From assembly GCA_905178155.1 (NCBI GenBank), contig CAJINV010000015.1, positions 1,850,920-1,914,919 of the forward strand: a DNA stretch of 64,000 nt, in the 5' to 3' direction. A program made the translations under genes and the position numbers. This document shows, in pieces, positions 2,257 to 58,449 of this stretch. Origin of the DNA: Amoebophrya sp. A120. Taxonomy: Eukaryota > Protista > Dinoflagellata. The notes below the pieces were generated by a model. It ran no database searches. It saw nothing but the letters and a program-made list of their open reading frames with translations, and was not told the DNA's origin. Within the stretch, counting starts at the first letter, position 1, and each line of letters opens with the position of its first letter.

Positions 2257-5200
2257 ATGATCGAAATGAGCAGGCCGAGGGGGAATACTACTAGTTGTGC
2301 ACTCTTATACCCAGTCGAATACGCGGAGGAGCCGTTCGGAATACCCGCGCATTACAGGGCGGACGTTAGCATTGTCTTCATAAACGGGCGGTGGCAACTT
2401 ATCGTCAAAAAAATCTTTTGGAAGGACTTGCAAGAAAGAGCGACCGAGGGAACTACGCCGGGTCGTACTACGAAAATCCTCGAGGAGGTACCCATGGACC
2501 AGGAGACGAAGCAGGAAAGAAGAACGTTTTCGCTTTTGGGGAATTCAGGACTAAAAAAGACGAAGGGTGGAGAGTGCACGGGTGTGCTCATGGAATCGAA
2601 AAAAGAAATCGTGGAAGATATGCGTAAAAACAACGAGCGGCACAGCACCTCGATTCTGCTGCCCTATTTCGCGGAAGAGACCTTCTTTTTGACGACGTCG
2701 TCGAGTACGAGTAGCAGCTTCAACGGGCGGCGGGGACGAGGTTCTTGCGAAGATACATCGTCGCAATTCTTTGACTACAATTTTCTGGAGTCGAACAGTC
2801 AGGCTTATGAAGACGGGGGTGACGTGCGCAGTTTTGGGAGCGGAAAGGACATGCATATCCAGTGCAAAAGTATCGTACTCGTAGTAATTGCAGCTTTTAT
2901 GGCATATACAAATCTTTTTGTTAAGGCAAATCCGCATCACAAATTTACTTAATTTAACGTTGTAATGCTGAGCTAATTGCAATTGCTATACATTATATTC
3001 ATGCGAAAAAAGAGGTAGACAGAGGGCCCCAGAGAGGTGGCCGAAAAAAGAGGTCGACAGAGGTAGAAAAGAGGTCGACAGAGGTGGAGAGGTGGCGCGG
3101 GACCCCGTTCGAGAGGGTCCGCGAGAGGGTGCGCGAATAAGGCCCGCAGTAAGCGCCCACCCTTAGGCCCCGCCTAAGTGGCACAGAGGGCGCAGAGAGG
3201 TCAAAAAGAGGGGGCGCGAGAGGTCGACAGAGGTGGAGAGAGGTGTTGTGAATAAGGGGCGACCTCTCGTGGACCCTCTTGGCCACCTCTCGGCCACCTC
3301 TGTCGACCTCTTTCTACCCCCCCGCGAGTATAGCCGGACTATTAGCGGGGACCCCCAAAAGAGGCCAAAAAGAGGGTCCGCGAGAGGTCTGTGAGAGGGT
3401 AAAAGCACAAAGAAGCGGGCGCGAATCCGCATGGCGCTACCCATATTTGGCATTGCAGGCCATTCGCGGACTTGTTTTGTCCGACGCCGGCCTTTCCGTG
3501 CCACCCTCTCGCGCACCCTCTCGCGCCACCCTCTCGCGCCACCCTCTCGCGCCACCCTCTCGCGCCACCCTCTCGCGCCACCCTCCCGCGCCACCCTCGC
3601 CTCTCCCGCCGTGCGGCTTCTGTTCCTTCGCCCCCGGTGTTCTTTGCAGCTGCTCCCTGCGCAGAGCGCCCACAGGCGCGGGAAGCGCGCAAGTGGTCCG
3701 GCGGCTTGGCGCGGCGCAAACCGGCGGCAGGAGTCCAGTAGTGTTTTTCTGTGCCTAGGCCCGTGGGGTTGTGGTCCGAGCGGCAAACAGCCTTGCCCCG
3801 GCCCAACAGCCTAGCGCTCCGGCGGCAGCCGGGGCATGGCTGGTTTATTATACTAGTGCGATGCTTTTGCAGTTCATAATGCAGACCAGCAACCAAATCG
3901 ATCTGCTTGATGCGGTGCGGCAGGTCCTTAGATTCGGCTATAATATTTTTATGCCGGATGAAGAACAAGTACAAGACACGACGAGAGATGCTGGTGCAGA
4001 AGAACACGCTCGAAAAGTTTTCCTGGAAGAGCTTGCCATGGACCTCGATACCCTTGTAGTTGTTGCGCGCGATCAAGATCAGCGACGCGAAATCCACCGC
4101 GTCCGCGCCCAGGAGAAGTTGGGAACGATTCTCCCGATTTTGCTCGAGCACTTTGCTAATGACTACGTGCTTCGCGACCACACATATTCCGAGGAACTCC
4201 GGCCTCTTGTGGCGCGGAGACAAGTTCAAGTCAAATCACGCCAAATTCCACCACCTTCTGAGGCAGCAGATTCGAGAACATCGGCGGCGCCAGGTGCTGA
4301 ATTCGCTTTCGACGTTGATTTCTCTGTCGAAGTGGTGGCGGACGCTTTCGCCATATTGACGCCAAAGCTGCCGGAAGCTTTCTACCGCGAGACAAAACGT
4401 GACCACAACGGGGAGCCAAGGAAACCCGGCTATCGGTTGAAGAAGGTAAGGGAAGCAGTGGAGAGTTGCGTCAAGGTCGTTCTCGCGCAGGTTTCACGCG
4501 CCGCCACAGGAGAGCAGCTGCAGCTCCGCCAAAAGGGCTCAGGAGCAACGTCAGCCGGTACTTCTAGAAATCCAGAAGCTCCTCTTGTTGGGGCACTGGC
4601 ACAGACGAGATCGAGCGTGGACTTGTGGACGAGCATTATGGACTACGAACCTGGGACCTACATGATTCCCAACGGGATCACGCTCACTAAAGGATTGCTA
4701 AGTGTTTTCTGGCACTACCTGAACATGAATGGCAAAGCAGAAGTTACTATCGAGGCCTTTGCGAATCTAAACACTCGGGAGCAGAAGAGTCAACAAGTAC
4801 GGGCGCGGGAGTTGCTGCGGCTGTTTGCGTTGGGACCGCGGAGGGAGGGGAAAAGCCCTTGGGTCGCTTCCACAAAACGCTTGTTTCCAGATTCCTCATC
4901 TCCTTCTCCGACACCCGGCACCGCGGCAGGCCAAGGCGCTCCTCCCCCTCGTTTATCGCGCGAACAGACGTCCTATCAAATGTAAAAATGTCTGGGTCTG
5001 GAAGGTCGGAACTTGTAATGCGTATTTCAGAACACAGAAAAGTCTCTCATGCATACGTAGCAAAAGCTGCCCACTTTCTGTCAGCAAAATAGGCAATTTG
5101 TCATGCGGATTCGGCATTGCGGAAGCTTCTCGAAACCTGTGACGCTAGAGCTTTCATGCCAGACCTTCTGTGTCATGCAAAAACAGCATGACTTTTCCAG

Positions 5201-5535
5201 ACCCAGACATTTTTACATTTGATACGTCCTTTACCGCGGTTCTGTATGATTCGCTGCGTGGATTGTACGCAGAAAGAGCGGAAAAAGATCAGTGGTATTC
5301 TAATTCTTCGGGGGCGGTGGAAAAGAAAACCAAAACTCCACCATCTTCTGAAGTGGTCGGTGGATTAGGATTAGGGAGCGCTGGCGGACCACGTGGTCAA
5401 GATATGGCGGCTTCCGGCAGTGGCAGTGGCGGAACTGCAGCCGGCGGAGCTCCAACTGTACGCAGGGCGCGTCGAAAACGGCGGAGGCGGAGGGTGACGA
5501 CGAAAGGTCGTCGCGTCAGGTCGAAAACGAGATGA
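2257..5535 (+). CDS. Hypothetical protein, 3 exons (2257-2855, 3884-4973, 5230-5535), basic Arg-rich C-terminus
   Basis: ORFs 2257, 3771 and 5170 join in frame after element+TSD removal: GSGKDM|QTSNQID and REQTS|FTAVLYD. Confidence 0.75.
3006..3400. repeat. Degenerate agaggt(cgac/gg) repeat block with internal inversion
   Basis: Repeated agaggtcgacagaggt units; 3281-3318 is close to the reverse complement of 3062-3096. Confidence 0.75.
3500..3600. repeat. 13-bp minisatellite (gccaccctctcgc) x about 8
   Basis: Tandem units read directly from the sequence. Confidence 0.95.
4974..5224. mobile_element. Introner family B (251 bp)
   Basis: TIR tatcaaatgtaaaaatgtctgggtctggaa / ttccagacccagacatttttacatttgata; TSD cgtcc/cgtcc; frame restored. 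Confidence 0.95.
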
Positions 5536-6423: not shown

Positions 6424-6480
6424 TGTTCACCTCTTGAGATGTTCGTCAGGATCACGAATGCAGAGGGTTGCTTCACACTC
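6424..6480 (+). repeat. 57-bp direct repeat, copy 1
   Basis: tgttcacctcttgagatgttcgtcaggatcacgaatgcaga... matches 8260-8316 with 3 mismatches. Confidence 0.9.
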
Positions 6481-9195: not shown

Positions 9196-12100
9196 ATGGC
9201 AGCGTTTTTCGCACCGGTTGAGCATGTTGATCCTGCTCCAGCAGCCCACTGGAAATACCGCACCTACACGGAACTGTGCATCCGCTCACTGGAGACCAAC
9301 GGCCTCCGGATCCACGGGCTAACAGATGCTTTGATGCAAGAAATCGCAGCTGCCTTGGAGCAACAACAGGAAGTTTTCTACGCTTCTGTGTTGCAAGATC
9401 AAGATGTTGAACAAGGTCAGCATGAACAACAACATGAAAACCAGTTGTACCCCAGGGTTCTCTCGATCGCCGTTTCGATGCGGCAATTGCCAACCGTCCA
9501 CCCGGATATCAAACGACGGTTTGGTATGGGAGTGTCAGGATTGAAATCGACAAAATCGAAAAATTTGCAATGCATAAAATGTAGGGCAAGTGAGGCCTGT
9601 GCTCGGGAGCAGGCAATTGAGACCGATTGTTAGCCTGTTTAGGAGAAGGCGATGTGCTGCCAGAGTGGCACGACAGGAGCAGTCTTCTTTGCCCAACAGC
9701 ATGACAGACTGTATTTCGGCTCTACCCAAATTTGTCATGCGCTTCTTGCAAACTGAGGCTCCAAGACCAAGTGGTATCGATTTTATGCATGGCAAACTAT
9801 AACTATTCCAACTTTGACGATTTCAATCCTGACACTCCCATATTTGGCCGTTTCGTCTTGCACTTGGTGGACAAAATTATCGACCCGATGGACTTCGTGC
9901 TATGCATTGCATGCAAATATGTCTGGGTCTCCTGGAAGAATGCAAGATTTGTCATGCATATTCTGCATGGCCCAGAACCAGAACGTCTGGAATGCGAGCT
10001 GTAGCCTGGCAAGTTTTGCGAAGGCTCCGCAATGCGTGTTCTGCATGAGAAGCTGAAGCGTTGTCTTCTCGTAACCGAAACTTGTACTTGGCACTTGTGT
10101 TGGTCGTGCAATACAGATTCTTGTATCGATCAGACCTAGCATGACAAACTCAAACTCCTCCAGCGCCAGACGTATTTCTATTTGCAGTTCATACGTGCGT
10201 GTGGAAAACGATTTGGAGATTCAGAACCTGATCACGCGGAAGGGAAAAATCGAAACGGTGAAGAACGGGAAAAATAAAATGGACAAGATCGAATCCGAAT
10301 TTCCAGAGGATTTGAACCCGGTGTTAAAGCTGAAACGCCTGGAGTCGGTGTATTTCGCACTCATCGCGGCAACCATGTTGCTGCCCAAGTTGCGATATGA
10401 ACTGCAAAAGTATCGCACTCGTACTAATTGCAATCATGCATTGCAAATTTTTTTCTCAAGGTAAATCCGCATTACAAATTCCATTTTTCATGCTGACGAA
10501 ATTTGTATAATGCAATTCATACTAGTACGATGCTTTTGCATTGCATATGCGAAACGACAAAAAGAAGGTGGATTGCGAGATGGAGCTGAACAACAATCTT
10601 GTGATCGGAAATATCAAATGCAAAAGTGTCTGGGTCTGGAAGAATGCAAGTTTGTCATGCTTGTTTGGCATGACTCGAGAATCTGTGTTGCATAGGCACG
10701 AAAGAGCCCTCTTAACTGTCATGCGAAAAGGCAGTTTGCCATGCGGAATACATAAGACATGACAGCCACAAAATTTGTCATGCGTAGCTGCGTATTGCGG
10801 CGCGTCTATCATTCACTTTTAGCATTACAAGTTTCCAGACCCAAACATTTTTGCATTTGATAGGAAAAACGAGTGATAACAATCATGCCGCGGGGGCACA
10901 ACTAACAGCAAACGGCGCATCATCGCGCTCTCCAAGTACTAGATCGGCGTCCGCATCACCGAGCAAGAATACTAGAACTGCACTGTCTATGCATCGCAAA
11001 ACTATCGGACTAATATGATAATTGCATTACAAGAAATTGACTTCGCATTACAAATTGAATCTGTCATGCGGATTTGCCTCAAGAACAAGATTTGTAATGC
11101 ATAAACGCAATTTGATAGTACGAGTGCGATTCTTTTGCACTGCATACTGTCACCCTCTCCGACCAAAACCCCACGGGAGCTGCTGACCATATGCAAGAAA
11201 AAAACTGTGTAAGTGTAATTATGTGTTGCAGAACATGCAAAAGGGTTACACCTGTCATGCCAGATAGCCATGAAGTCCTCTTTTCACGTGTGTTTTCCCT
11301 TACAAGTCACGCATGACAGGTTTTCTCTGTCATGTAGAGCAAATTTGTGATGCTGTTTCTCAGAGAAAGTTACACTTACACACTTTTTTTCCTGGATAGA
11401 CCATGGACCAGGAGGACTGCTTACCCGGGCAAGCCAGTCCGTTCCGAAAGCCGCAGAAGAAGAAAGCCTCGCTGTTGTATTCTGCTGGGGGGACGGGCCG
11501 CGGGACGGGGCCGAGGGCAGCTGCAGCTGGGAACAATAATTCCAACAATGTCAATCTCAATCACGCAGAACTACAAGTGAAGGACATCCGGGCCGGGAAG
11601 CCAGTGCTATGCATTGCAGAAGTATCGTACTCGTATAAATGCATTACAAATTTCCTTAGCATGAGAAATAATGTTTGTCATGCGGATTTACCTTACGAAC
11701 AAAATTTGTAATGCATGGCTGCAATTACTACGAGTATGATACTTTTGCACAGGATAAGTGCCTTTGTTTTACCACGATCCGGAAGCGGACCAGTACCGGC
11801 TCGATTACAACAGAACAGCAGGTTCTTCAACCTCTCCTGTTGACCGCACTGCTGCTCGTGCTGGGATTCAACGTCGTAGCTCAGGTCGTGGTTATTTTCA
11901 ACGAAACCATCAAAACAATCACAACCCGAGCATCCAGCAGTTTTACGAGGACGACAGCTGTAACAACCCGCCGGTTCATGATTTTTACACCACAGAAGTA
12001 GATGCAAGAACTGCCGCACGTCGGCCATGCGGAAACGGAGGCAGGACCGGCGGCGGAACTACATCAAGGAAGAGTTGGAAGATGAACATGCCAGGAAGAT

Positions 12101-12324
12101 CAAGAACGATGGGACGGAGCTGCTCGACGACTTCGGCAAAGAGCTTCACCTTCCCTAGCAGTACGACGCGGGCAGTGGACAATAGAAATGGCAGGAAGAT
12201 GTTCTTGCACAGTTACGCCACGAATATCAGCACTTGCAGGGGCCAGTACAAAAAACCTCACAATCGTAGTATCTACGACGCGGACGCGGAGGACGACGAA
12301 CTGTTGGTCACGTTTGGACAGTAG
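9196..12324 (+). CDS. Hypothetical protein, 8 exons separated by 7 introners; 3' end uncertain
   Basis: Exons 9196-9524, 9848-9900, 10199-10395, 10553-10611, 10868-10987, 11152-11189, 11404-11607, 11762-12324 join without stops (e.g. IKRRFG|RFVLHLVDKIIDPMDFV|RVENDLEIQ). Confidence 0.8.
9525..9842. mobile_element. Introner family D (318 bp)
   Basis: TIR tatgggagtgtcaggattgaaatcg / cgatttcaatcctgacactcccata; TSD tttgg/tttgg. Confidence 0.95.
9901..10193. mobile_element. Introner, family B-like (293 bp)
   Basis: tatgcattgcatgcaaatatgtctggg...ccagacgtatttctatttgcagttcata; TSD cgtgc/cgtgc. Confidence 0.9.
10396..10547. mobile_element. Introner family A (152 bp)
   Basis: tatgaactgcaaaagtatcgcactcgta...tacgatgcttttgcattgcata; TSD tgcga/tgcga. 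Confidence 0.95.
10612..10862. mobile_element. Introner family B (251 bp)
   Basis: Family B TIRs; TSD ggaaa/ggaaa. Confidence 0.95.
10988..11146. mobile_element. Introner family A (159 bp)
   Basis: Family A TIRs; TSD ctgtc/ctgtc. Confidence 0.92.
11190..11398. mobile_element. Introner singleton (209 bp)
   Basis: tatgcaagaaaaaaactgtgtaagtgtaa / ttacacttacacactttttttcctggata; TSD gacca/gacca. Confidence 0.92.
11608..11756. mobile_element. Introner family A (149 bp)
   Basis: Family A TIRs; TSD agtgc/agtgc. Confidence 0.95.
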
Positions 12325-12344
12325 TCTAGCTTTTGAAGAAGATT

Positions 12345-12493
12345 TATCCTGTGCAAAAGTATCGTACTCGTATAAATGCAAGTCTTGCATTACAAATCTT
12401 GTTCCTACGGAAAATCTGCATTACAAATTTTATTTCTCCTGCTGAGGAAATTTGTAATGCATTGATACGAGTGCGATACTTTTGCACTGCATA
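12345..12493. mobile_element. Introner family A (149 bp), just downstream of an apparent stop codon
   Basis: Family A TIRs; TSD agatt/agatt; host frame unresolved. Confidence 0.92.
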
Positions 12494-13037: not shown

Positions 13038-16000
13038 ATGGGCACCTCCGCAAATAAGTCGCGAGCCAGCTCGCTTTGGGCCATTTGCGAGAGTCCTCCT
13101 TGTACCAAAGTGCTCCTTCCATGTGGTCCCGGCACGAGGACCACCTCCACAATGGTTGCACTACTCTTTCTCACACTCGCACAAGTAGAAGTTGCTCCGG
13201 CCACTGCCATCACTACAAACCTGCAGAATCGCATCAGTTTGCGCAGCCGAAGTAGCCACACGACACTGTCCTCACTGGAAAGAAAATCATCATCGTCCTC
13301 CCGGAACGCGAAGCAAATCGCAAATTTGGTTTCCGTGCTCGACAGGATGCAATCGGACTTGCAGAAAGAGCTGGAACTCGAGGCGCAGGAAGCCAAAAAG
13401 AAGCAGTGCTACTGCGAGAACACCATCGACGAGACGAAAAAGGAAGTCAGTGTGGGGAAAAATCGGGTTAAGGAGATTGGGTCCGCTTTGAAGCAGCAAG
13501 TTGGCGTCGTCGCGGAGGAGAAAGTGGTGATCAAAGAGCTGAAAGCGAATATGGATTGCAAAAATGTCTGGGTCTGGAAGATTTCGAGATTTCTCATGCT
13601 AGTTTGGCATGACTCTGAACTCTGTATTGCGTGGCCACGAAGACCTCCTCTTGTCTGTCATGCAAAAACGATGTTTCTCATGCGGAATACGCAACAGAGA
13701 GCCACGAGAAAATCTGTCATGCTTGGCGGTGCATTACAAGGCGCTTTCCGTTCACTGACATGCATCACAAGTTTCCAGACCCAGACATTTTTGCATTTGA
13801 AAACGAAGCTCGAGAAACAAAAAGCGGCGGTGTTAGCCGCAACGGAGATTTTCGAGAAGAACGCAAAAACTTTTGAGGATGAGATCAAGGAAGCGAATAT
13901 TGGGAAAAGGGACATTGAATCCGCGTTGGTGGTGCTGCAAAAGCCGGGCATGGAGGTTATGCATTGCAAAAGTAAAAGTATCGTACTCGTATAAAATACA
14001 AATTGGCTCAGCATTACAAATTGAATTTGTATTGCGGATTTACCTTAACAGCCTAGATTTGTAATGCATACTTGTAAGCAGTACGAGCGCGATACCTGGG
14101 CAATGCATAGAGGTGAAGGATGTGCAATTAGTGCAAGCGGCGGTGGCGGCGTTAGTGCAAAACTCGAAGTATCCTGTGCAAAAGTATCGTACTCGTATTG
14201 CAATCATGCATTACAAATCGAAATCCTTTTGTTCAGGTAAGTCCGCATCACAAATTTCATTTCTCATGCTGAGGAAATTTGTAATGCATTTGTACGAGTG
14301 CGATGCTTCTGCTTCTGCACTGCATACGAAGGAAAAAGACGTGTGGTTTGGGCGAGATAGAGATGTATTTGGCGATTCTTTCATCGAAGGAGCGACCGAT
14401 ATTGCAGGTGACTCATACAACTCACCGGAACATCAAGCAGAACCCGATCTGGAAGGAAGTGGAGCGGAGTCGCTGTCTGATCAACATGTAGGTGAGAATG
14501 AGATGAAAGAGCATCTACAACCGACTAGCACGAGGACAAGCTTTCTGCAAGTGAAGAGTGAGATGAACGAATTTTCGAAAACAAGAACTTCATCTACCGC
14601 GGGAACGTCATTCGCGTCTCAACTGGCGCAAAGTTTGGACGACGACGGGGGCGCATATTCCCTGAACATTAACCGTCCCCATCCACTTTTTGCATGACAA
14701 GCACAGAATTTGCTACGTTTTTTGCATGACAAATTGGATGGGGATGGTTAATTTTTAGGGGATAGCGCAAACGCTGGCGCAACGCTCTCTCCAACCCTGG
14801 CCCGGCAAATCATTGCGAACTTTCTGACCAAGACGACAGCTACAGCTGGTAGTTCTGATCCGCAAAGTGAAAGTAACAACCCCGTAATACTGATGAAAAA
14901 ATCGTTGCGCTCGCTGCGCAGCAGCGATGACCACCAGGACCACGTCGATCTCGCGTTGCTTCAACTCGAAGGGAGACAAGGGCTGAGTTCATCCACGTCA
15001 GCCAAGAACCTGATGAACACTCCTTCATCCCCCGCGCTGTCTCGTCTATTGGGAATGTTGAAGAACATGAAAAACAACTTTGAGAAAACCGCGACTTCTC
15101 TTGCAGAGAAGCAAAAGAAGGAGAAAACGGAATACGACGAATTCAGAAGCACCACGGAAGGGGAAGTGAACAACTTACAGCAGGTATTCTAGAAAGAAAA
15201 ACCACGACGGACTTGCTCGCCCCCAGTTTGTAATGTGAAATGAACATCGCCACGAGCACGACATGAGGGCACAATACGAAAAATTAAGATACACATTTCG
15301 TCGTGCAGCGCCGTGCTATTGATTCTGCTATAGTTTGTTGTTCTAGCTGCACGAATACGCATTAAGTACAACTTGAGGGCGGTGTTGTTCAACAAAGTTT
15401 TTTTCCCCTCGATAGCGGCGGCTTGATGACAAAGTGAAGAAGCAAAACGCGGCGAAGCTGCAGATAGAAGATTTGAAGGAAGAAAGGGGAAAACTGGTGG
15501 AGAAAGAGCTCCCCGAAGCCGAACGATTTTTGGTTGACACCGTGCAAGAGTTATGCTGATGTGGAAAATCACTTCAGCTACTTCTCGCTTCCTTCACTGT
15601 GGATAATTTTTGATGAGGACGATGATAGATCATGATCATGATGCGTTGTAATGATCGAAAATCAAAATATTAGGTGGCATTGACATTTTGACTTTTGCAG
15701 TTCATGCATGACAGATATCCGCAGGGCAGCAAAACGTCGACATCACTGAGCGAGGCGTCGAGCCGGTGGTTCGTTTCCACAGGACAGCAGTGCGATGAAG
15801 CGAAAAAAGAGTTTGCCATTAACGAGAAAGCGCGGCTCGACGAGTTAAAGGGACTGGCCGAGGGTGGTGCAGTGCTGAAGGAATTTTTGAAGGAAGGTGG
15901 AGCAACTACATCAGTGGCGGCGGGACTAGTGCAAGTAGAGAATCCAGTGGAACAGGAATCGGCTGCTTCTTCAATACTACAACAGGACGAGAGGAGCAGC

Positions 16001-18337
16001 TCGCGGTTTGAGGTTGTTCATTCGGACATCACTCCTGGTGCTGGCCCGCAGCAAGTGTTTCTGCAACTTGGCAGTACGACGAGAACTTCTTCCGTGGAGA
16101 GAGATGAACCGCAGCTACAGCCAGGGACCACTCCTGGTGTCGATGATGTAGACCTTCTCGCGGTTTTCAACGCCGAAACGCACTCGGGGAAGAGTATACT
16201 CGCGACGTCGGCATCAAGTGCAGTTTTACCTTCTGCGAGGACGACAACATCACCGACTTCCGCGTTCTTCGCTGAAGACACATTGTCAGACGAAGCGAGG
16301 AAGGCACGAGGTACGAAGGAAAGAGGAACAATGCCCAGGAGAACTTCTACGCCCGCGAAAGCCTTCTTGTTGCAGAAATTCAATGACCTCTTCGCGACCG
16401 CCGCTGGAGAAGTGGAAGTGCGTGCGGAACAACCCGCGACCACACGAAAAACTGGGTCATTGCCGCGTGGTGAAGTAGAACAATCCAGCACGAGTTCGAG
16501 CTCTAGCTCCACCGCGCACGTGCAGCAGCTGGCGCAAGAGCAAACAGGGAGAGCGAGTACTTCTATGGTGCAAGAACAACTTCAGAACAACTACAACAAG
16601 CTCAAGGGTGACGTCTTGGCCCAAGATGAGAAGTCCTCCTCGCAGTCAGGTCTTCAGCTACACCAGCAGCAGATGTACACGACGCACAAGAATGCTTCTT
16701 TTTCGAACACGCTGGTCGAAAAGATCCAGAAGCTCATCACCCATTTGAAAACGAAACAAGCCGCCGACAACGCCGCCCGAGATTCTTGCAGCCAAGATTT
16801 GCGGACCAATGCGGGGAAATTGGACCTGCTGAAGCGAAAAGAGCAGGAAGTGACCGCAGGGTTGGAGAAATTACAGCTGTATGCAAAAATGCCATAGAAG
16901 TCTTGCTCTTGCACACAATGTTTTAGTGCAGATATTAATTGCATCACAAACACTTCTTCGAAAGGAACAGCACTCGAACTTGTCTTTATCCTGAACATGT
17001 AGATTCTTTTAGTAGGAGCTACAAGACGAGATCTGTCCTGGTGCTACTAGTAGATGAACGAGTGCTATGTTGCAGCTTCTGCATTGGATCAGCTGCAACT
17101 GGAGCAGATTGGGGAAAAGGTGGAGAACGTGGAAAAGCACGACTTGCCGAAAATCCAGGGAGAGCAGAAGCAGCTCTCGCAGGATATGGCTCGTCCGTGC
17201 ACCTGCGTCGACAATGATCTTCTCAACTGCAATGACGTATTTGTGATACCTAAAGTTGTCGCACGAGGATGGTGCGTCTTCTAGCACATGAACATTTCCG
17301 CGGCTTTTTTAATGTAGTAGCTGAGCATGACAAGGGTTCTGGGTTATATTAACATGAGACATCAAACTCAAACTCTGCACAGGACCTGTCATGTAAAAAA
17401 TACACCTTGCTGTAGTAGACAAGATTGTCTTATCCTCTGGTGAAGTGGATTGTTTGTGTCTGACAAAAAAATGTTGTAGGCTCTTCCTCTTGCTTATTGA
17501 GATAGAGACTCATTGTCCGAGCTCCTGAGCACCCGGGCATACAGGAGAGAGAACGGGAAAACAAGCTCTTCCAGGACGAAGTCAAGGAGCAACGGGCGAT
17601 GAAGAAAGTGCTGGAACTCGCGTTGAAACAGATCAGCAAAACGTCGGTGGGGTCTTCTAGTAAGACTGGAGGCGGCACATCAAGTGTGGAAAAATTGTAT
17701 CCAGGAAAAAACACCCATCCCCATCCATTTTTCGCATGACAAACGCCGGACTTTATGCATGTTTTGCATGACAAAGTGGATGGGGATGGGTGTTTTTTCC
17801 TGGAAAAATTGTTCCACCAACTCATCACGGAGGCCGTGGAGGAAGAAAAACAGCTAATGACCTATCCTGTGCAAAAGTATCGCACTCGTATTGCAGTCAT
17901 GCTGCATTACAAATCTTTTTCTTAAGCTGCGTCAGCATTGCAAGTTTTCTTTCTCATGCTAAGGAAATTTGTAATGCATTTATAGATTATATTACGAGTG
18001 CGATAGTTTTGCACTGCATATGACCTCCGAAGCGACAAAACAGCGCGAGTACATCAGCCTGGCGCAGGAGTTTACGCAATTGGAAGAAACGCTTGTGGAA
18101 AAGCGAGACAATTTAGAAAAACAGCGTGCGCAGCTGCAGGAAGAAAACTTCAAAGTCCAGAATGTGGAGAAGAAGCAAATTCTGTTAGAGATCGAAAACC
18201 ACGCGAAGGTGAGCCGGGAGCGGGCAGCGGAGTGTGACTTCATCCTGAAGGCGTTTGGAAAACGGCAGGCGGACCGGACGGCAGAAAAGGAGAAGCTGGC
18301 GAAAGCACAGGAAGTGCTGAAAGGGCTGGATAAGTAA
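13038..18337 (+). CDS. Probably secreted, repeated coiled-coil protein with spaced cysteines (alveolate/dinoflagellate type), about 11 exons
   Basis: Hydrophobic MVALLFLTLAQ segment; repeated units such as IANLVSVLDRMQSDLQKELELEAQEAKKKQCYC and LVEKIQKLITHLKTKQAADNAARDSC; ORFs 12969, 14113, 14893, 15695, 17054, 18020 join in frame; intron about 15552-15791 is degenerate. Confidence 0.75.
13550..13802. mobile_element. Introner family B (253 bp), stop-free and in frame with host
   Basis: Family B TIRs, right end AAA instead of ATA; TSD gcgaa/acgaa. Confidence 0.9.
13958..14109. mobile_element. Introner family A (152 bp)
   Basis: Family A TIRs; TSD gaggt/gaggt. Confidence 0.92.
14170..14326. 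mobile_element. Introner family A (157 bp), stop-free and in frame with host
   Basis: Family A TIRs; TSD cgaag/cgaag. Confidence 0.92.
14656..14764. mobile_element. Introner family E (109 bp)
   Basis: tattccctgaacattaaccgtccccatcca / tggatggggatggttaatttttaggggata; TSD gcgca/gcgca. Confidence 0.92.
15184..15415 (+). other. GT-AG intron with GTAT...ATAG ends (possible aged introner)
   Basis: Removal joins NNLQQ|RRLDDKVKK in frame. Confidence 0.7.
16880..17090. mobile_element. Degenerate introner (211 bp)
   Basis: tatgcaaaaatgc...gcattggatc; TSD agctg/agctg; frame restored. Confidence 0.75.
17237..17505 (+). other. GT-AG intron with GTAT...ATAG ends (possible aged introner)
   Basis: Removal joins LNCND|RLIVRAPEH in frame; contains gcatgacaag and tgtcatg motifs. 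Confidence 0.7.
17698..17806. mobile_element. Introner family E (109 bp)
   Basis: tatccaggaaaaaacacccatccccatcca / tggatggggatgggtgttttttcctggaaa; TSD aattg/aattg. Confidence 0.93.
17863..18020. mobile_element. Introner family A (158 bp)
   Basis: Family A TIRs; TSD tgacc/tgacc. Confidence 0.93.
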
Positions 18338-42200: not shown

Positions 42201-45200
42201 AGATGTGCGTGACACGCTCGTAAGTGTGACTGCCTCGTCTACCGATCGAAGAAAAACATCACATCATCGACGAGAAGTTGCACAACCTTCAATGTCGGAC
42301 GGTGCGAGTAGAAGTAGTTCTACTTCATCTTCCTCTTCTTCTCCCCGGCGGCCGAAAGGAGATCAAGACGCGGTTGCAGGTGAGTCACCTATTACAACTT
42401 CGAGGTCGTCAACATCGTCACCCATTGTACCGGTGCGCCGATCTTCTTCTTCAGGCATAATTCGCGCTAAGACTACTGAAGCCAGAAAAAAGATCCGAAA
42501 GACAGAGAAAAAGCCAGCAGCCTCTTCCCCCGGCTCCCTCAGCAGTGAACAGCCATCCCTGCGGTACCGTGGCCCCTCTGCGCTAGTGTCGCGTCGCGGT
42601 CCGCATGCTCGTCCTTCTTGGCGCCCAGGTTCCACTCCGCCTGACATTAGAGTAGAACGGCGCAGACGGCTGTTGGCGGACGCGCAGGCTGTGCTTGACA
42701 CGACTCCGCCCTCGGATCCGCGCCACGAAGCGTCGCTAATCGTGACTACGGAAAAATCTTCAGAAGAGTCGAGCGGGACGACGAGCAGGAGCTCTACATC
42801 TACTACTTCTTTTTCCAGCGATGAGGATAACCATGAGCAGGCCGCTAGAAGGCGGAGCAAAAGTCGTGGCGCAGACCATGACGCAGCTTCTACATCATCT
42901 TCTAGCACGACCAGCAGCAGCGGCTCGCGCGGTTGCTCGGTTGTAAGAAGCACGAGCAAGATTGCAAAGAAGCCGTCTGCCACGTCACGACGTGACCAAC
43001 AACCACATCACGATGTTGTGCAAGAACGCCGAGGAGGACCAAGAAACGACTTCAACAACCACAGAAATCTTCAAGAAGCGTCATTGTCTGCTGGTGGTGC
43101 TGTCGCTGCCAACAGTTCCGCGGCGGGGGCCGCGGAGATGGGCTTGAGAAATTTCGAGGACCGCTTCGATCGCGGCACTAGGCATGACGTCGGCAGGTGC
43201 CAACCCATTCAGGTTCAGCCTGAGGTGTGGCGGACGCGGGACCGGCTGAAGATGCGAACGGGCCAACCCGAGCAGCACCGGGGCCAGCAGCAACTACCCG
43301 CGCCAGCAGAGGAAGGCATCTACGGGAGCATCGGCAATCGCGAGCGCCCAGTGTATTGGGATCCCTACAGACCAGGGGGGACGCAAGAAACAGCAGAGCA
43401 GAACGACAGACAGCTTCGGAAATTTTTAGACAAGAAAGGCCGACAGAGAGCAAATTGTCCCCGTCCTACGATTCAGCCGGTGCCCGTTCGGGTCATGTCG
43501 GGTCTCGGGGTTCAGCAGGCGTATGATTATTTCCGTGGGAGCCGCATGGACATGCCGGCAGCGAGGATAGCAACGAAGTACGTCGCGCCCTCGGGGCCTC
43601 GCGCTGTTGCTCGATCTCGCCCAGCTGCGCCAGATGTCAGAGCGGGCGGCCCTTCCCCTACCAGCAGGAGAGGCGTTCGCGTTGGACCCCCATCCAGGAT
43701 GAAGAGTAAGCAAGGGAAGACGCGCACTTTTTCGCCGGGGCGCAACCGGAACCACGCAACTGCGGACGAGCAACGCAACGGGAGCCGAAAGCAGGACCGT
43801 CACACTCAGCGGGTCGCCGCGCAGAGGAACCACGCGGCTGTCGCACGCCGGCAGGACGGAAGGAGTAGCACAAATCAGAGAAATTATGCGAGGCACAGCC
43901 CATCTCGTTCACCTCCGTTAGAGGTGGCCCATCAGCAGCACCGGAGCCAGGACCCGCGAGAGCAGCGTATTCTACACACCATCACGCCGCGACCGGGCCG
44001 ACCCGGTAGGCTTAATTTCGAGAAGGCTATGACACTGCCAACAATGTCAAAAGCCTGCATTGTTCTCAGTTTTTTTTTCCGGGCTCGCTGCAGCTTTTGC
44101 TATAGTTTTAGAATTTGATCAAAGCAGCTTCTGCTATGTCAGCTTTTGATGCTATATTTTTTTGAGAGTCTTTGCTTTGACATTGTTGGCAGCGCCATTA
44201 TACCGACCGCGATGCAGCAGGTTTGGCTGATATCCATGGAAAATAAGAATCTAAACTGCGCTATCGTGCACGAATCAGACTCTGATGATATGATGAACTA
44301 TGATTCGTCTTCGCTTGTTCTCACGCAAGATGTAGATGCTATGCGCCACTATTCTCATGGCAACCACATTCTTGATGGCACTCGTACCATTATATGATCC
44401 GTTTTTACACAATTTCCGATTCATCCGTGCGGAATTTCTATGAAATTGGCAGGAGCAGGTGCAGCCAGGAATGAGTAAACAAATTTGCCACGGTATTGCT
44501 CATTACTTCAGTGCAGTTTTGTTCCAGGATAGCTTGCCTCCCAGCCGAAGAGCCCTGGGATACCGAGCCAGATTTGCGACCACTTGCACTGTTTTCAAGC
44601 GGACTCCAGGGGCAGGCACCATCGCATTCCCTATTACGAACCCATAGTAGACACTGGAAGCGGCGCCGGGATGTTCTGCATGTTGTGCGACAAGATTGCC
44701 GATAGTGCTCACTGCCAGTCGGAGGCGCACCTGAAAAAAGCCGAAGTATTCGAGATGATGCACGAAGCCGACCGGGCAAAGCGATCGAAGTTGCTGCTCC
44801 CCTACCCGGAGGCGCCGTGGGTGATGTACAAGGTTCACCGCAACGGGTATTGCTTTCTGAAAGACGAAGCGGACTGGTGGCCTTATTGTTTGTTGTGCGC
44901 TGGTATCCTGTGCAAACAAGCATCGCACTCGGGTACGTGGGCTGCTACCTTGCATATGCATGACAGATTGCCGCATGACAAGCGCAAGCTATTTGTTGCT
45001 TAGTACTTCTTTGCTGGGATGAATTCAAACTGGGTTGTAATGCGTTCTATACTAGTGCGATACTTGTTTTGCGAAACTTCATACGGGAGAACGGGGGGCA
45101 CGATATCACGCGGAACTATGAATGCCGCTGGTCCTTTCCGCTCGACAAGGACACCCCGCACATCTGCGGCCCGGTCGGGGCTGGAAAAAACAACAAGTCG

Positions 45201-46427
45201 CAGGGCCGCTGGCATGCGGAGTTTGTCCGTGAGTATTGGGCCAAGCCGGCAAAGCGGCGGGAGGTGGAGAGCCAGCGGAAAAGGATCTACGAAGCGGACA
45301 AGGAGTATTACAACTACCGCTGCTGGGAGGCAGGCAGCACGCGGGGCGCGATTGTGCGGCGGGCGGGGCACAAGTTGATGGATTGCGGAAAGGACGAAGA
45401 TGAGGACTGGTTGTCGGGGGAGGAGGAAGATCCGAGGAAGGAGGTTTTCAGACAGAAAGAAAAGGAGCGAGAAATAGAATACGTGGAGCAGGACAGCAGC
45501 CCCCTCAGCAGCGCGCCGGCAGATCACGCGCATAGCTACAGGGGCGGACGAGGAGACGCAAGGCGGGGCAGAAACTTCTATCACCGACGAGCGGGCAGGC
45601 GAGCGGACGAGGCTACGTCTTGGCGGAACTACGTGGCCAGCCGTCGAGGCAGTCATGTCGAGAGCATTACGTCATCGGCTGCGCAAGTAGATTTCTCCTC
45701 GTTTATCAGAAGTGCAACTGATGTGACAACTGACTCCGCGTCCGCCATCAGGTTTTTTTTTTTGTTTTGTGAAAAAGTAAAAGAAAAACGCATGCACAGC
45801 ATGAATATAAATTAGTTTTCAGTGCGTCGCCCCCGTCGCGTAGACTGTATAGCTTTTTTCGACGGGCTGACGCGAGTCTTGCTGCTTTGAAAACTCAAGC
45901 ACATTCTTCGCATGCACACACTTCAAAGCGATTTTTGTTTTTGTACACGAGGTCCTCGCTGCTTTGCATGACAAAATGGGAGCGAGGGGTCACTTGTTGC
46001 ACTTTGTGTAGTTGCATACCTCCCGACCCGACAACCTCCGACTCGGAAGAGAGCGACCAAGATCCACGCGCACCATGGAGGCAAGGCGGTAGATGGTATC
46101 CGCTGGAAATTTGCTGCACAGGATGCTGACGCACAAATTAGAACCGCCTTGCATGACACAACCAGCGATCTAGGTGTAGTGGGCCTACTTACGAAGTTCT
46201 TGCAGCATAGCCATGTGCTTTTTCTGTGCGTCCTCGTGTCGTGGGGTGCTACACTTTTCCAACTGCATAGAGGGGGGAAAGCAGGCCGTGGTGGAGTCAC
46301 ACCAGGAGAAGCGGGAACTACAGGCACTACTAGCCTGCCCGCCCCGGCGAAGGGCAAGGGTAAGGGAGAAGAGCTGGCTGCTGCCATGCGGGCGGAAGTA
46401 GTAACTACTGGGAATTCCAAGCAGTAA
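36224..46427 (+). CDS. Very large Arg/Ser-rich low-complexity protein with U1/matrin-like C2H2 zinc finger(s) near the C-terminus; join around 45690-46020 unresolved
   Basis: GT-AG introns 36520-36637 and 37800-38012 plus introners link ORFs 36224, 36957, 37905, 39238, 40018, 40912, 44146, 44584, 45069; motif FCMLCDKIADSAHCQSEAHLKK. Confidence 0.6.
38779..38936. mobile_element. Introner family A (158 bp)
   Basis: Family A TIRs; TSD atcaa/gtcca; frame restored. Confidence 0.88.
39005..39227. mobile_element. Introner family G (223 bp)
   Basis: tacgacagtgcacaact...ctccccctcattt / aaatgagggggagggcaagttgtgcactctcata; TSD ggttc/gattc. Confidence 0.9.
39777..40011. mobile_element. Introner family C (235 bp)
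   Basis: Family C TIRs; TSD ttcgg/ctcgg; interior inverted relative to the 56882 copy. Confidence 0.93.
40804..40954. mobile_element. Introner family F (151 bp)
   Basis: Family F TIRs; TSD acgac/acgac. Confidence 0.95.
44028..44199. mobile_element. Introner singleton (about 172 bp), TSD not preserved
   Basis: TIR tatgacactgccaacaatgtcaaa / tttgacattgttggcagcgccatt. Confidence 0.7.
44231..44531. mobile_element. Degenerate introner (301 bp)
   Basis: tatccatggaaaa / ttttgttccaggata; TSD gctga/gcttg; frame restored. Confidence 0.6.
44904..45083. mobile_element. Degenerate family A introner (180 bp)
   Basis: tatcctgtgcaaacaagcatcgcactcg / ctagtgcgatacttgttttgcgaaacttcata; TSD poorly preserved; frame restored. 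Confidence 0.7.
46097..46269. mobile_element. Introner singleton (173 bp)
   Basis: tatccgctggaaa / ttttccaactgcata; TSD gatgg/gaggg. Confidence 0.7.
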
Positions 46428-53966: not shown

Positions 53967-56900
53967 ATGTCGCGCCGCCTGAAAATTGAAAACGCGATCA
54001 AAGGCCTGATCGCCGACAAAGAGGCCGCGCTGCTCAAAGCCGAGGAAGAGTTTCAAAAGGAACGGGAGCTGCGGAGCCAGGAGAAGCGGAATGTGAAGAG
54101 ACTCGCCGCTTCGGCACATTTAGGAGCGCGGGATGGCGAGACGGAGAAAACGCCGAGGCGTGTGGTGACGGGAGGACTAGATTTCGGGTATAGCTAGTTT
54201 TTCATGCAAAATGAAGAGCATGTGCATTGCATGTCTGGATTTTCTGTTACGGCATTAGCTGTACGAAATACAGCGCACGAATAATCTTTACATTTACGAA
54301 TGATCCTGTACTCCATCATCAAACTCTACTCAAATAAGAGACCTTCGGCCACCCTGACGGCCCCAGTTCCGTACGCCTGCGCAGTCTGTTTCGCGACAAC
54401 GTCGGGAGGGGGCAGTGGTAGTGCCAGCAGTAGCTTCTCGTCCTCGTCCACCGCGAACTACACAAATTTTGCGGCGCATCAACATGGTGGAGTTGGAAAT
54501 GAAACCCGCATCTCAAATTCAGCTGGAAGTAGTTCAACTCTCACGACAACTACCACACCCTCTCGGCCGCTTCGCGTCTGTCCCGCGCGGCTGCACCGCT
54601 ACTGCGACAAACACTGGAAGACGTCAAGATGCGACTGTGAGCCCAGCAGTGGGAATTCGAATTGTAGTGCTAGTACTACGGCGGAGACAACTATCGACAA
54701 GCAATTCTGTCGCGAAATCCCACCCGCGACGGTCACGGATACGGAAAAGCTGCACTTGAAACTGAAACGACCCCACGACTCAGTGACGACCACAAACTCC
54801 TTCCCCTATTGCGCGGTGTGTTGCAAAGCACCGGTAGCAGCGGGGAACTTCTTCTGCCAGAACTGCTTCACCGTCGGGTACTGTTCGGAGGGGCACATGA
54901 GACAGCACGTTAACCACTTGCACGTGTTCGGGCTGGAATGTTTGGAGGAACAGTTTGGCAGGTTCGAGGAGCTTGTCGGGGACAGTTCCGATCATATGAA
55001 CAGTAGCGGAAACTACAGCACGAACATCAACACAAAAGGAAACATGTTCAAGAGATTCCCGATGCTGAGGTTTCCGACCTGTGAGGAACTGCAGGGAACG
55101 TTTGCGGCGAAGAAGATGTACTATGAGTTGAGCCGGGACGATCGAGCTAGTCGAGGAAGAAGAACTACAAGGGCGGCAGCAACGGCGGAGGGCCAAGACG
55201 CCGATGGCAACCACGGTGGAACCAAAAACCCCGGTCAACTTCTGTGGGAAGCCCTGCTGCACCGGGTGAAAATCGAAGCGGAGGCAGCGGTAGAGCAGGA
55301 TGATGAAGGGGCGGACGCTGGTCGTGCGCCGGGTCTAGCGGCGCACCACGAGGAACGAGATCCTGTTCCACATGATCAAGAAAAAAAAGGCGCTGACCAC
55401 GGCGCTGCAGTGGGAGCTGGCAATAAGAAGAGATTAACCAAAACCCACAGCCGTATGGACGAGGAAAAAGAAAACCAGCTCGCCATCCTTCACTCCGGCC
55501 CTGGCCGCAGTAGGAAACGGAAGAAAAAGCGACAGAGGACAATCCTGGACGAATTGCCGAGGTTTGAAATTCCGAAGACAACACTCACGTCAGGACATCT
55601 ACTTCCAGTACACGACAGTAGCGCTTCTACGAAGACGCTTCGTCAACAGCAAACTTCTGAAGAAAAGCAACTCTCCTCTTCCACCTCCTGGACCACGTTT
55701 CTCCTGAACTATCAAACAAAAAACTGTTAACGGTAACGGCTTTCCTGGATTGCGGATATGCATGACAAATTTGCCTAGCATGCATGCTATGCATGACAGA
55801 TCTGGGCACGTTTTGCGATGCGTTACTGCATTACAAATTCCGTATATTATACGGAATTTGTAATGCGATAACGTTATACTATAACGTTATAACTTTTTCC
55901 TGTGATATGAACACCGGCTGGATCACGCTCGGGCTGAGGAAGGGCGAGTGGGGAACTCTGATGCACGCTTTGTCCGAGGTGTTTCTCTTTCTGCAGTTGC
56001 GGGAGGTGTTGTTTGATAGGGGGTCGGGGTCCTCCTCCAAGCGGAGCAGAAATAAACTACCTGGTGGAATAAATAGTGCGAATCCAGCAGCAGAAGACTC
56101 AGACAGCGAATTTGATTACGACGAGGCCATGCTGTCGGAAAGGCAAGTGTTTGTTGAAGAAGATGAACGCTTTTCTCCTGAAAGTAAAGGCGGAGCGACG
56201 CAGACGAGTAGAAGAGGTGGCACGACCACAGCGCAAGAAGGTAAGGCAAGCATCAGCAAAAGCAAAGCGGCAATTATACAGCCTCGACGCCAAGAGCGAG
56301 ACACTCCCGAACCCGTTGTCGTGAAGAAGTCTCAAGTCGAAGTCACCGACGGAAAAACACTGAAGGACTTGCTGGACAAGGCCAACAAAATTCCGACGAC
56401 CGACGGTTTCTTCGCCGAGAAGAAGAAACCAATCGGGTTGCTGTCGTTTGTTGGTGATAAAGCGAACGCCGGCAGCACTGCCGGTCGTTTTGACGATGAT
56501 GTCGGGCCCTCCTCAACATTGTCATCTGTTCTTGCAGAGAACAATGCCAGCCCCGCCGGAGAACTACAAGCCGACGTCTCACCATCGTCCCGGGTCAAAG
56601 ACACGTTTGAAATTCTGGACGCCTACCCAGTTGCTCCGGGTCCAACCGCATTAGCCCCGGGCGCGGCGAACGGAAATTATAAGCCGACATTACCGCCGCC
56701 AACTCCCTTCAACGTCGTCTTTCTCCACGCAGAGTTGGAAAACACCGACATGCTGCAGTTTTTGCGCGAAAAATGGACCTTGTTTCTGTCGATGCTGTGC
56801 TTCGGAAACGATGGCGATAGCGAAGATGCTGCAGGATCTACTTCGCATGTTGGAAAAAATCTGAAGCTCGAGCTTACCTTCTATGGCGTTCTCACCTGTT

Positions 56901-58449
56901 ACATTCTCAACTGTTGCACGGATTTCCCATGCAAAACTGCCATCAGCCTCCACTTGATCAAGGTGCTTAGCATGACAAATTTTCGAAGGGCTAAGCAGCA
57001 TGACAATCTGTGGCAAATCTGTGATGCGAAAGCTGCAATATTGCCACTTTTACTGTTGCTGTTCTTGCATTACAAATCCATGTAACAGTTGAGAATGTAA
57101 CGTTTGAGAACGCCATACCTTCTGCGTCCCGGAAAACCTCCACTTCGATTGCAGCTCGGAAATGTTTTCGAAGGACAGCCTGCAGATTTACCGGGGGAGT
57201 ACGACCATAGCAGCTAGCACAGGTAAACAAGCAGAGGCACCAGACGATCTTCATGCTCCAGCACCACTTGCAAATGAAGATGTGCGCGACGTCGTGCAGG
57301 GATTGATCGTGAATCAGCAGGCATTGGCGCAGCAGCAGCTTCAACCACCGATCACACCGGCGCAACTACAGGAAGTAGAGGACCAAAAAATACTTTTACC
57401 GGAAACCGCTCGCGACCCTGGACCGGGAACGTTGTTGGAAGAGAAAATCACTCATGCTCTTCCGCACCACTGCACCTCCTCCCTTCGCTATCGGCTCTTT
57501 CCGCAAACAGTGAAGTTTGAACACGAGTTTTTCAACTCCCGGACGGATTTGTTCGTCTTCGTCGGCGGGGGGTTTTTCCAGCACAAAGACCAAATGGCCA
57601 ACGTTGATAATGTTAATGCCTCTTCAACAGCCGCACCAGCATCTTCGGATGGTGCAACCACGACAGCAGGAGGAGGAGAAGCCACGGGAGGACGCACAAA
57701 TAATGCAAGAGAAGTAGACCACGGACTAGTACAACCACAACCACAAGATACAACTACAGACGACCCCTTACTCGAACTGGATCTTCGCCACTTTTTCGAT
57801 ACCGTTTTGAGAAAATCCTCGAAGAAGCGGAAAAAATCCGACCAGCAACAGTTCGTGAATTCTTGGAAGAAGTTCGGAATCACATCGAAGCCCGGGACCA
57901 AATTGCTCCTCGTGAACCGAAAGAGGAAGCTGGTGGAGAGAAATTTGGAGTTCTGCTTGAAAACATTGAACCGAGAACGAGACCAGTTATTAGATGACGA
58001 TGAGGTTTTCGCGACTGCACCGTGGGCGAAGCAGGAAGGTGATACGCTGTTAGGCAACGCGGGGCGGAAAAAAACCGCTTGGGAAATTTTGCTGCCGGTA
58101 ACGGAAAATGCTGGTTTTGCGAGTCCCTTGTATTATGAGAGTGCACGACAATTCCCCCTCCCCCTCATTTGTATGGCATGAACAGCAACACAAGCAGCAG
58201 TAGAAAAGGGGCGTTTGCATGACAAATCTGCATGCGACTTGTAGTACTATTTGAGGTTCCGAAATTTGTCATGCTGACAGTGCTTACGAGCAAAGGGGGC
58301 GGGAGTTTGGTATTTTGCATTACAAACGAGGGGGAGGGGGAGTTGTGCAGTCTCATATGTACCTGCATGCGGACTACGAGCGCGAATGGAGGTGGTTTGC
58401 TGTGTTGGTGAGAGGGAAGGAGAAGAGAAACTACAACTACAGATCATGA
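53967..58449 (+). CDS. MYND zinc-finger protein with MSS51/ZMYND15-like C-terminal region, 5 exons
   Basis: CAVC...CQNCFTVGYCSEGHMRQHVNHLH...C; later VVFLHAELE, LKLELTF|CVP, DLFVFVGGGF, SWKK, ENAGFASPL; GT-AG intron 54188-54340 plus 3 introners. Confidence 0.7.
55710..55907. mobile_element. Introner family H (198 bp)
   Basis: tatcaaacaaaaaactgttaacg / cgttataactttttcctgtgata; TSD tgaac/tgaac. Confidence 0.9.
56882..57117. mobile_element. Introner family C (236 bp)
   Basis: Family C TIRs; TSD ccttc/ccttc. Confidence 0.95.
58134..58357. mobile_element. Introner family G (224 bp)
   Basis: Family G TIRs; TSD tgtat/tgtac. Confidence 0.93.

What the first reader, a model, noticed from the sequence alone, without database searches (positions are those of the whole stretch)
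4974..57117. Introners occur in both orientations within same-strand genes
Seen: all hosts are on +, yet interiors are reverse complements in four family pairs: B (4974 vs 31982), D (9525 vs 20374), C (39777 vs 56882) and E (17698/29994 vs 49993). Known: spliceosomal introns need oriented donor, branch point and acceptor signals. Inference: removal depends only on symmetric features (TIR stem, TAT/ATA ends, TSD, bidirectional motif), which points to a structure-guided RNA endonuclease/ligase, an altered spliceosome, or ciliate-IES-like DNA excision. It also argues against spread by reverse splicing.
Basis: partly seen in the sequence, partly recalled or inferred. Interest (0 to 1): 0.78.

Follow-up and report, generated by a model that had tools for sequence, protein, structure and literature searches.

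The report
Transposon introns spliced in either orientation
In the marine parasite Amoebophrya, short transposon-like inserts sit in genes facing either way and are missing from the RNA in both cases, cut at one fixed position without the usual GT-AG ends, likely by an altered spliceosome that reads the insert's mirrored ends as start and end signals.

Summary
Observation confirmed. The window is Amoebophrya sp. A120 (100% protein matches). The elements are its published TAT...ATA introners with 5-nt target duplications. All four pairs are reverse complements in + strand genes. All 10 larger families occur both ways (101:91 of 192 copies). RNA contigs and published gene models remove both orientations, always element + 5 nt. 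DNA-like contigs keep them, which argues against IES-like excision.

New here: imperfect duplications fix the cut. The intron is 1 nt + TAT...ATA + 4 nt in 12 of 12 RNA joints (exact in 2). Selection on the ends is polar. In 228 copies with known host strand, +2 T, +3 A and -7 A never vary, while their mirror positions do (14 variants; one hand-called exception outside that set). Some spliced copies lack a predicted terminal stem or an intact duplication. So the signals are symmetric in DNA but read directionally in RNA: a donor without G+1, and a likely branch A with a 6-nt ruler in place of AG. Best reading: an altered, U1-less spliceosome (0.6); rival: a euglenid-like non-spliceosomal route (0.28). 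Lariats untested. The elements are known; I did not find the orientation, register or polarity in print.

The parts
4974..5224 (.). Family B element (orientation opposite to 31982); intron 4973-5228 in + gene
   Evidence: 256-nt intron in A120 gene model P0005; no RNA joint seen directly
31982..32248 (.). Family B element, reverse orientation; intron 31981-32252
   Evidence: 272-nt intron in P0001; two orthologs colinear across the junction
9525..9842 (.). Family D element; intron 9524-9846
   Evidence: removal inferred only from the length of RNA contig record 1 and the restored 520-aa ORF
20374..20689 (.). Family D element, reverse orientation; intron 20373-20693
   Evidence: 321-nt intron in P0004
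39777..40011 (.). Family C element; intron 39776-40015
   Evidence: RNA joint 39772>40013, 240 nt, run X1 only, depth 2.6
56882..57117 (.). Family C element, reverse orientation; intron 56881-57121
   Evidence: RNA joint 56874>57116, 241 nt, runs X1 and X4
17698..17806 (.). Family E element, 3' end mutated to AAA
   Evidence: RNA contig record 5 (808 nt) equals 17542-18626 minus 114 minus 163
29994..30102 (.). Family E element, same orientation as 17698
   Evidence: 114-nt intron in P0001
49993..50101 (.). Family E element, reverse orientation
   Evidence: RNA joint 49985>50100, 114 nt, X1 and X4
11608..12493 (.). Two family A elements in opposite orientation (11608-11756, 12345-12493) bounding one exon
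   Evidence: X1 piece 11757-12338 ends at both predicted joints within one contig
13550..14764 (.). Four elements in one gene (13550-13802; 13958-14109 and 14170-14326, family A, opposite; 14656-14764)
   Evidence: 1219 - 691 = 528 nt, as in X1 record 2
44230..44535 (+). Intron with decayed duplication that fixes the register exactly: A-TAT...ATA-GCTT
   Evidence: joint 44229>44536, both=0, run X4
45703..46022 (+). Second exact register pin: T-TAT...ATA-CCTC
   Evidence: joint 45702>46023, both=0, X1 and X4
54188..54340 (+). Decayed element-like intron that obeys the register and is also GT-AG
   Evidence: joint 54186>54340, run X1
29865..35218 (+). Host gene, EF-hand protein (A120 CAD7968886.1), 12 introns, 10 of them element + 5 nt, in both orientations
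457..5535 (+). Host gene A120 CAD7968875.1, 7 introns, all element + 5 nt
19363..23447 (+). Host gene A120 CAD7968880.1, 2 introns (321 and 185 nt)

Best explanation
These are likely non-autonomous DNA transposons (MITE-like) that sit in Amoebophrya A120 exons in either orientation and are missing from the RNA as 1 nt + TAT...ATA + 4 nt, likely removed by an altered U2-type spliceosome that would read the terminal repeat as a donor at the 5' end and its mirror as a branch point with a fixed-length acceptor at the 3' end. Shown: both orientations, exact removal of element + 5 nt, the 1+4 register, invariant U+2, A+3 and A-7. Inferred: (1) insertion by a transposase making a 5-bp duplication; (2) N-U-A-U acts as a donor that keeps U+2 and A+3 of the ordinary GUA donor but no longer needs G+1, fitting the reported lack of U1; (3) A-7 is the branch nucleotide and the 3' cut falls 6 nt after it, replacing AG; (4) the A-run/U-run in the repeat, the internal GCATNACA motif and end pairing help define the intron. 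Because both signals lie in the inverted repeat, any site and either orientation gives a seamless intron.
For: Register: 12 of 12 joints allow 1 nt before TAT, and two allow only that; gene-model junction 21024/21210 fits too. Published Table S4: all 9 commonest A120 non-canonical end pairs are NT-NN and all 9 for A25 are TT-NN. Polarity: +2 T, +3 A and -7 A are 228 of 228; variants sit only at +4 (2), -6 (8) and -5 (4). The rule came from 5 window variants; it held for 9 of 9 automatically called variants in the other assembly (p=0.004) and 12 of 13 with hand calls (p=0.003). Same base on the same strand (T: +2 0, -6 8; A: +3 and -7 0, -5 4) speaks against mutation bias. The 3' variants break end pairing, yet 13550 and 17698 are removed. 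The six most decayed introns all start GT (6 of 6 vs 59 of 226, post hoc), suggesting one machine for both intron kinds. A120 keeps U2, U4, U5, U6 and most spliceosomal proteins, and U1 was not detected (PMC7789003 section 10).
Against: No lariat or branch data. No U2-type branch consensus: YURAY lies in the last 45 nt in 12 of 52 elements on either strand, and -9/-8 are variable. One element in L058 has C at -7 in a hand-called 195-codon frame, with no RNA check. GT-AG intron 34186-34345 has T at -7, so the rule is not universal for canonical introns. The G+1 enrichment vanishes at looser thresholds and in a rank test (p=0.60). Three invariant bases carry too little information alone. Polar sequence needs could also belong to a protein nuclease. 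RNA evidence is one sample of assembled contigs whose RNA status is the tool's guess.
Confidence: 0.6

Rival explanations
1. A non-spliceosomal RNA route, as proposed for euglenid nonconventional introns: end pairing brings the junctions together and a nuclease/ligase or direct transesterification cuts 1 nt before and 4 nt after the stem.
For: Most copies are predicted to pair their ends in both orientations with similar energy (mean -34.1 vs -33.0 kcal/mol, n=54). The offset geometry resembles the euglenid +4..+6 with -8..-6 pairing (PMC11282704 section 6). No AG and no branch consensus. Farhat et al. suggested a distinct mechanism.
Against: Spliced copies 55710, 46097, 45704 and 54189 have terminal pair probability of 0.04 or less. 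No excess of wobble-preserving changes in the arms (103:113 vs interior 486:462, p=0.37). Base identity, not pairing, is conserved, and the kept bases match the ordinary donor positions.
Confidence: 0.28
2. A divergent minor (U12-like) spliceosome: the N-TATCC ends resemble the U12 donor RTATCCTT, and U12 introns tolerate odd terminal bases (consensus recalled, not from a call).
For: TATCC in 48 of 228, RTATCC in 23 of 228. Transposon-derived U12 expansion is reported in Physarum (review).
Against: Most ends are TATCA, TATGG or TATGC; U12 branch-like CCTTRA in 0 of 228. U11, U12, U4atac and U6atac were not found in A120.
Confidence: 0.06
3. Programmed DNA excision like ciliate IES removal, so that transcribed templates lack the element.
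For: Seamless removal, TA-containing inverted ends, orientation independence.
Against: In DNA-like run X5 the 8 listed contigs run 24-68 nt into elements at 12 junction sides, and one runs unbroken across four divergent elements. RNA-like run X1 holds a retained form of 17185 next to spliced neighbours, while a silent stretch has depth 0. The 1+4 offset and the polar constraint follow the transcript strand. Limits: most X5 records were hidden and contigs drop rare variants.
Confidence: 0.03
4. Ordinary GT-AG splicing using cryptic or shifted sites on either strand.
For: 6 of 228 are GT-AG in the fixed register; some decayed introns are GT-AG.
Against: Only 2 of 52 window elements allow GT-AG in any junction-equivalent register. 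The exact joints are AT-TT and TT-TC.
Confidence: 0.02

Closest known systems
Amoebophrya A120 introner elements (Farhat et al. 2021, PMC7789003)
   Same: Same organism and elements: inverted repeat starting TAT, 7 variable nt, then a run of A; 3-5 nt direct repeats; RNA-supported non-canonical removal; U1 not detected; hairpin model proposed.
   Different: In the sections read, the paper says no clear splice signature and variable or unknown borders, and does not discuss element orientation. Here: both orientations, one register (1+4), polar U+2/A+3/A-7. [quoted passage not shown]
Micromonas/Aureococcus TIR introners (Huff et al. 2016; not held, seen only through review PMC10228655)
   Same: MITE-like, TIR + TSD, reported to insert in both orientations.
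   Different: They use or co-opt canonical splice sites; these need neither G+1 nor AG, so there is no site restriction.
Euglenid nonconventional introns (PMC11282704, PMC6221363)
   Same: Non-canonical ends, TIR pairing offset from the junctions, TSD-like repeats, proposed MITE origin.
   Different: Paired motif CAG +4..+6 with CTG -8..-6 and a pyrimidine|purine junction bias; excised as circles without lariat. Here TAT +2..+4 / ATA -7..-5, no such junction bias, excised form unknown.
Fritillaria borealis non-canonical introns (Henriet et al. 2019; seen through review PMC11282704)
   Same: TIR/TSD-derived introns handled by an evolved U2 spliceosome.
   Different: There the ends are mostly AG-AC/AG-AT with an exonic TAC preference; here ends are NT-NN with no exonic preference.

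Membership tests
Amoebophrya A120 introner elements | Genome is A120 | tested here: met
   100% identity to A120 proteins P0001, P0004, P0005
Amoebophrya A120 introner elements | Inverted repeat TAT + 7 variable nt + run of A; 3-5 nt direct repeat | tested here: met
   logos; definition
Amoebophrya A120 introner elements | Removed from transcripts, non-canonical ends | tested here: met
   12 joints; contig arithmetic
MITE (non-autonomous TIR DNA transposon) | TIRs, constant TSD, short, multicopy families | tested here: met
   273 copies in 10 families of 7 or more
MITE (non-autonomous TIR DNA transposon) | Cognate autonomous transposase with the same ends | not tested
   no whole genome held; the paper reports none in A120
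MITE (non-autonomous TIR DNA transposon) | Empty site in a related allele or strain | tested here: inconclusive
   orthologous proteins colinear across junctions; no DNA of an empty site seen; the 132 loci do not overlap window flanks among the 40 longest hits
Canonical U2-type spliceosomal intron | GT/GC donor and AG acceptor | tested here: not met
   G+1 61 of 228, AG 16 of 228, GT-AG 6 of 228
Canonical U2-type spliceosomal intron | U2-pairing branch consensus | tested here: not met
   YURAY in 12 of 52 on either strand; only a single invariant A at -7
Canonical U2-type spliceosomal intron | Lariat formed by the spliceosome | not testable with these tools
   only contigs available for the matching RNA runs; raw-read runs X8/X9 did not cover the genes
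U12-type intron | RTATCC donor and TCCTTAAC-like branch | tested here: not met
   23 of 228 and 0 of 228; consensus recalled
Euglenid nonconventional intron | CAG(+4..+6)/CTG(-8..-6) pairing, pyrimidine|purine junctions | tested here: not met
   logos
Euglenid nonconventional intron | Released as full-length circle | not testable with these tools
   needs RNase R or circular RT-PCR data
Ciliate-type IES | Empty site in somatic DNA | tested here: not met
   X5 contigs keep the elements; limited to listed records and common alleles

The most novel reading that the evidence does not exclude
Amoebophrya A120 has a U1-less spliceosome that has dropped both G+1 and the terminal AG and works from N-U-A at the donor plus a branch A and a 6-nt ruler. 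A transposon whose 3-nt end TAT/ATA supplies both signals becomes a seamless intron at any site and in either orientation, which would explain about 30,000 new introns and give a natural system for AG-independent 3' splice-site choice.
Probability: 0.5. Interest if true: 0.85.

Novelty: new variant of a known kind. Interest (0 to 1): 0.64.

Why it matters
How Amoebophrya removes its roughly 65% non-canonical introns has been open since 2021, with borders called variable or unknown. A single register and three invariant, transcript-polar bases turn that into one direct test: is there a lariat at A-7? It would also show how a transposon end can pre-encode both splice signals. Practical point: introner pipelines that require same-orientation ends or familiar splice sites (methods passages of PMC12130899) could split or discard such families, and A120 intron borders can be re-annotated by the 1+4 rule.

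Tried and rejected
No whole genome is held, so no transposase or snRNA search. No holder is on record as RNA; X1-X4 are guessed RNA. I accepted X1 and X4 as RNA because they lack elements and X1 has depth 0 at 8484-9147 where X5 has 51. Raw-read runs X8 and X9 covered only 3 and 5 of 30 bins, so no splicing efficiency by orientation and no strand or lariat data. X5 swamped the joint table, so X1 joints there come from piece ends and lengths. Joints for 38779, 39005 and 40804 were not listed (low cover; no conclusion). The wobble-selection test for an RNA stem was negative. The internal motif is slightly better kept as TGTNATGC than as GCATNACA in the transcript (4.8% vs 6.3%, p=0.02, non-independent copies): not relied on. 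Base bias at mismatched duplication positions: none clear (two coordinates there were off by one and were fixed). Five weak candidates (15047, 21629, 35472, 48110, 52635) were dropped as at control level. 92 of 320 elements had no host-strand call or lay too near a locus edge and were left out of the logos. L003 984, L058 2639 and L127 66 were left out of the variant count (the first two not family elements, the last without a frame). The codon model was trained on window + ORFs, so its window calls are circular. Homolog search for 3759-4970 at near lengths found nothing; one search found it. Pfam was clear for 2 of 14 exon pieces. Rfam: nothing. Earlier scan findings: none in 3 look-ups. Literature searches for orientation or branch data in Amoebophrya: searches found no such report. 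Huff 2016 was not held; Roy 2023 and Henriet 2019 were not read; figures of Farhat 2021 (Fig. 3, S19-S25) could not be seen and may bear on novelty.
Full report
Observation. The nine coordinates all start an element of the form 5-nt repeat, TAT...ATA, 5-nt repeat, with about 30-nt terminal inverted repeats. With the repeats trimmed, each pair aligns better as reverse complement: B 77 vs 57%, D 71 vs 61%, C 90 vs 62%, E 85-95 vs 56-64%. Among 47 window elements, 126 of 126 similarity edges in the large cluster gave consistent orientation labels. Removing element + 5 nt opens a + frame at 40 of 47 sites and builds ORFs of up to 1809 codons.

Identity. Exon pieces match Amoebophrya sp. A120 proteins at 100%. 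Farhat et al. 2021 (PMC7789003; I read the abstract, sections 10, 11, 12 and 16, passages, supplement part 4 and the Table S4 rows, no figures) describe A120 introners whose inverted repeat starts with TAT, then seven variable bases and a run of A, with 3-5 nt direct repeats, 29,850 copies, and no U1 snRNA detected. The elements are therefore known.

Both orientations are removed. Runs X1 and X4 (one sample; RNA by the tool's guess and by absence of cover on a silent stretch) give 12 joints in 38600-58500, each skipping element + 5 nt, among them both C copies (39777 in X1 only, depth 2.6; 56882 in both) and E copy 49993. In 4500-24400, X1 contig lengths fit exactly the removal of 13550, 13958, 14170 and 14656 (528 nt) and of 17698 and 17863 (808 nt), and one piece is bounded by opposite family A copies 11608 and 12345. 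Published gene models remove 4974 (256 nt), 20374 (321 nt), 29994 and 31982 (114 and 272 nt); these models are annotation built with RNA-seq, not independent data. A25 and MMETSP orthologs are colinear across the junctions in the conserved part of the EF-hand gene. 9525 rests on a weaker length argument. With the window this gave 320 distinct elements; all 10 families of 7 or more have both orientations relative to the host, 101:91 of 192, the most skewed being 26:13, p=0.053.

Not DNA excision. In DNA-like run X5 the 8 listed contigs run 24-68 nt into elements at 12 junction sides, and one spans four divergent elements unbroken. X1 holds a retained form of 17185. Most X5 records were not shown and contigs lose rare alleles, so this excludes only common empty sites.

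The cut register. With a perfect duplication the joint can slide. Decayed duplications fix it. All 12 joints allow one base before TAT; 44230 and 45703 allow only that; 44904, 54189 and 58134 exclude zero; 46097 excludes more than two. The intron is N-TAT...ATA-NNNN. The ends are otherwise random: G+1 61, AG 16, GT-AG 6 of 228. Farhat's Table S4 agrees genome-wide: the nine commonest A120 end pairs are all NT-NN, and those of A25, whose repeat starts TTA, are all TT-NN.

Polarity. Elements were detected symmetrically, allowing one change in the six terminal bases. In transcript orientation, +2 T, +3 A and -7 A are 228 of 228; the 14 variants lie at +4 (2), -6 (8) and -5 (4). Part of the 228 were detected as perfect TAT...ATA only, so the test rests on the variants. 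The pattern was first seen in five window copies and held in 9 of 9 automatically called copies from the other assembly (p=0.004). Hand calls add three that agree and one that does not (L058 1492-1744, C at -7, no RNA): 12 of 13, p=0.003. Further in, the two arms show no significant difference. End pairing is predicted for most copies in both orientations, but not at the terminal pairs of spliced copies 55710, 46097, 45704 and 54189, and there is no sign of selection for wobble-keeping changes.

Mechanism. Insertion by a DNA transposase is inferred from TIR, constant duplication and even orientation; reverse splicing would give sense-only copies (established reasoning). No transposase was looked for. 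For removal, the kept bases U+2 and A+3 are those of the ordinary GUA donor, and an invariant A seven bases from the end suits a branch nucleotide with a fixed short spacer (inference from general spliceosome knowledge). A120 keeps U2, U4, U5, U6 and most proteins. The six most decayed introns all begin GT, a post hoc hint that does not survive looser thresholds. Against: no branch consensus, no lariat data, one -7 exception, and a GT-AG intron without A-7. I put an altered U2-type spliceosome at 0.6, a euglenid-like non-spliceosomal route at 0.28, a U12-like machine at 0.06, DNA excision at 0.03 and ordinary cryptic splicing at 0.02.

Comparison. Two-orientation insertion of TIR introners is reported for Micromonas and Aureococcus (Huff 2016, seen only in a passage of review PMC10228655), with canonical sites. 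The search method of PMC9860276 allowed opposite-orientation pairs (passages); that of PMC12130899 required the expected orientation (passages). Euglenid and Fritillaria introns are the nearest non-canonical parallels (PMC11282704 section 6; PMC6221363 passages). Hypoxylaceae symmetric stwintrons are canonical and lack duplications (PMC8469720 passages). A 2024 review repeats the Amoebophrya picture without a register (PMC11453091 passages). Nine searches found no report of orientation, register or branch point for Amoebophrya; subscription papers such as Roy 2023 and the figures of Farhat 2021 were not seen.

Verdict. Observation confirmed; interpretation partly supported. The signals are symmetric in DNA but read directionally in RNA. 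New variant of a known kind; interest 0.64, because it reduces an open question to one branch-point experiment.

Noticed in passing
window 6193-6350: Only place with deep cover from raw RNA runs X8 and X9 (mostly 90-99% alike, loose ends on both sides); raised depth in X5; no Rfam match. Possibly an expressed repeat or small RNA.
   Followed up: partly
all elements: Internal motif GCATNACA / TGTNATGC at 13.7 per kb in family elements, 5.4 in decayed ones and 0.11 outside; 5-6% mismatch vs 25% for other interior columns. Shared by unrelated families: transposase or splicing-factor site.
   Followed up: partly
window 17185-17541: Divergent element seen as a retained form in RNA-like run X1 (depth 23) next to spliced neighbours.
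   Followed up: no
window 2856-3878: 1023-nt family A element with intact ends and duplication and an internal expansion holding tandem repeats; removed as 1028 nt in gene model P0005.
   Followed up: partly
window 32379-32467, 34186-34345, 54188-54340: GT-AG introns with decayed repeats, two with remnants of the internal motif: element-derived introns may end up canonical.
   Followed up: partly
window 4974-5021: Run X8 has about 110 reads of a B-type element end joined to another flank, i.e. an unspliced copy transcribed at another locus.
   Followed up: no
L058 1492-1744: B-type element with C at -7 inside a - strand frame of 195 codons; exception to the rule or assembly error.
   Followed up: partly
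window 6606-6865, 8051-8267; 60399-60586: 130-nt intergenic repeats and an 18-nt tandem repeat inside a coding frame.
   Followed up: no
PMC7789003 section 11 (A25): The A25 repeat starts TTARR, so its mirror reads YYTAA: donor-like and branch-like respectively, suggesting the same trick in the sister strain (inference).
   Followed up: no
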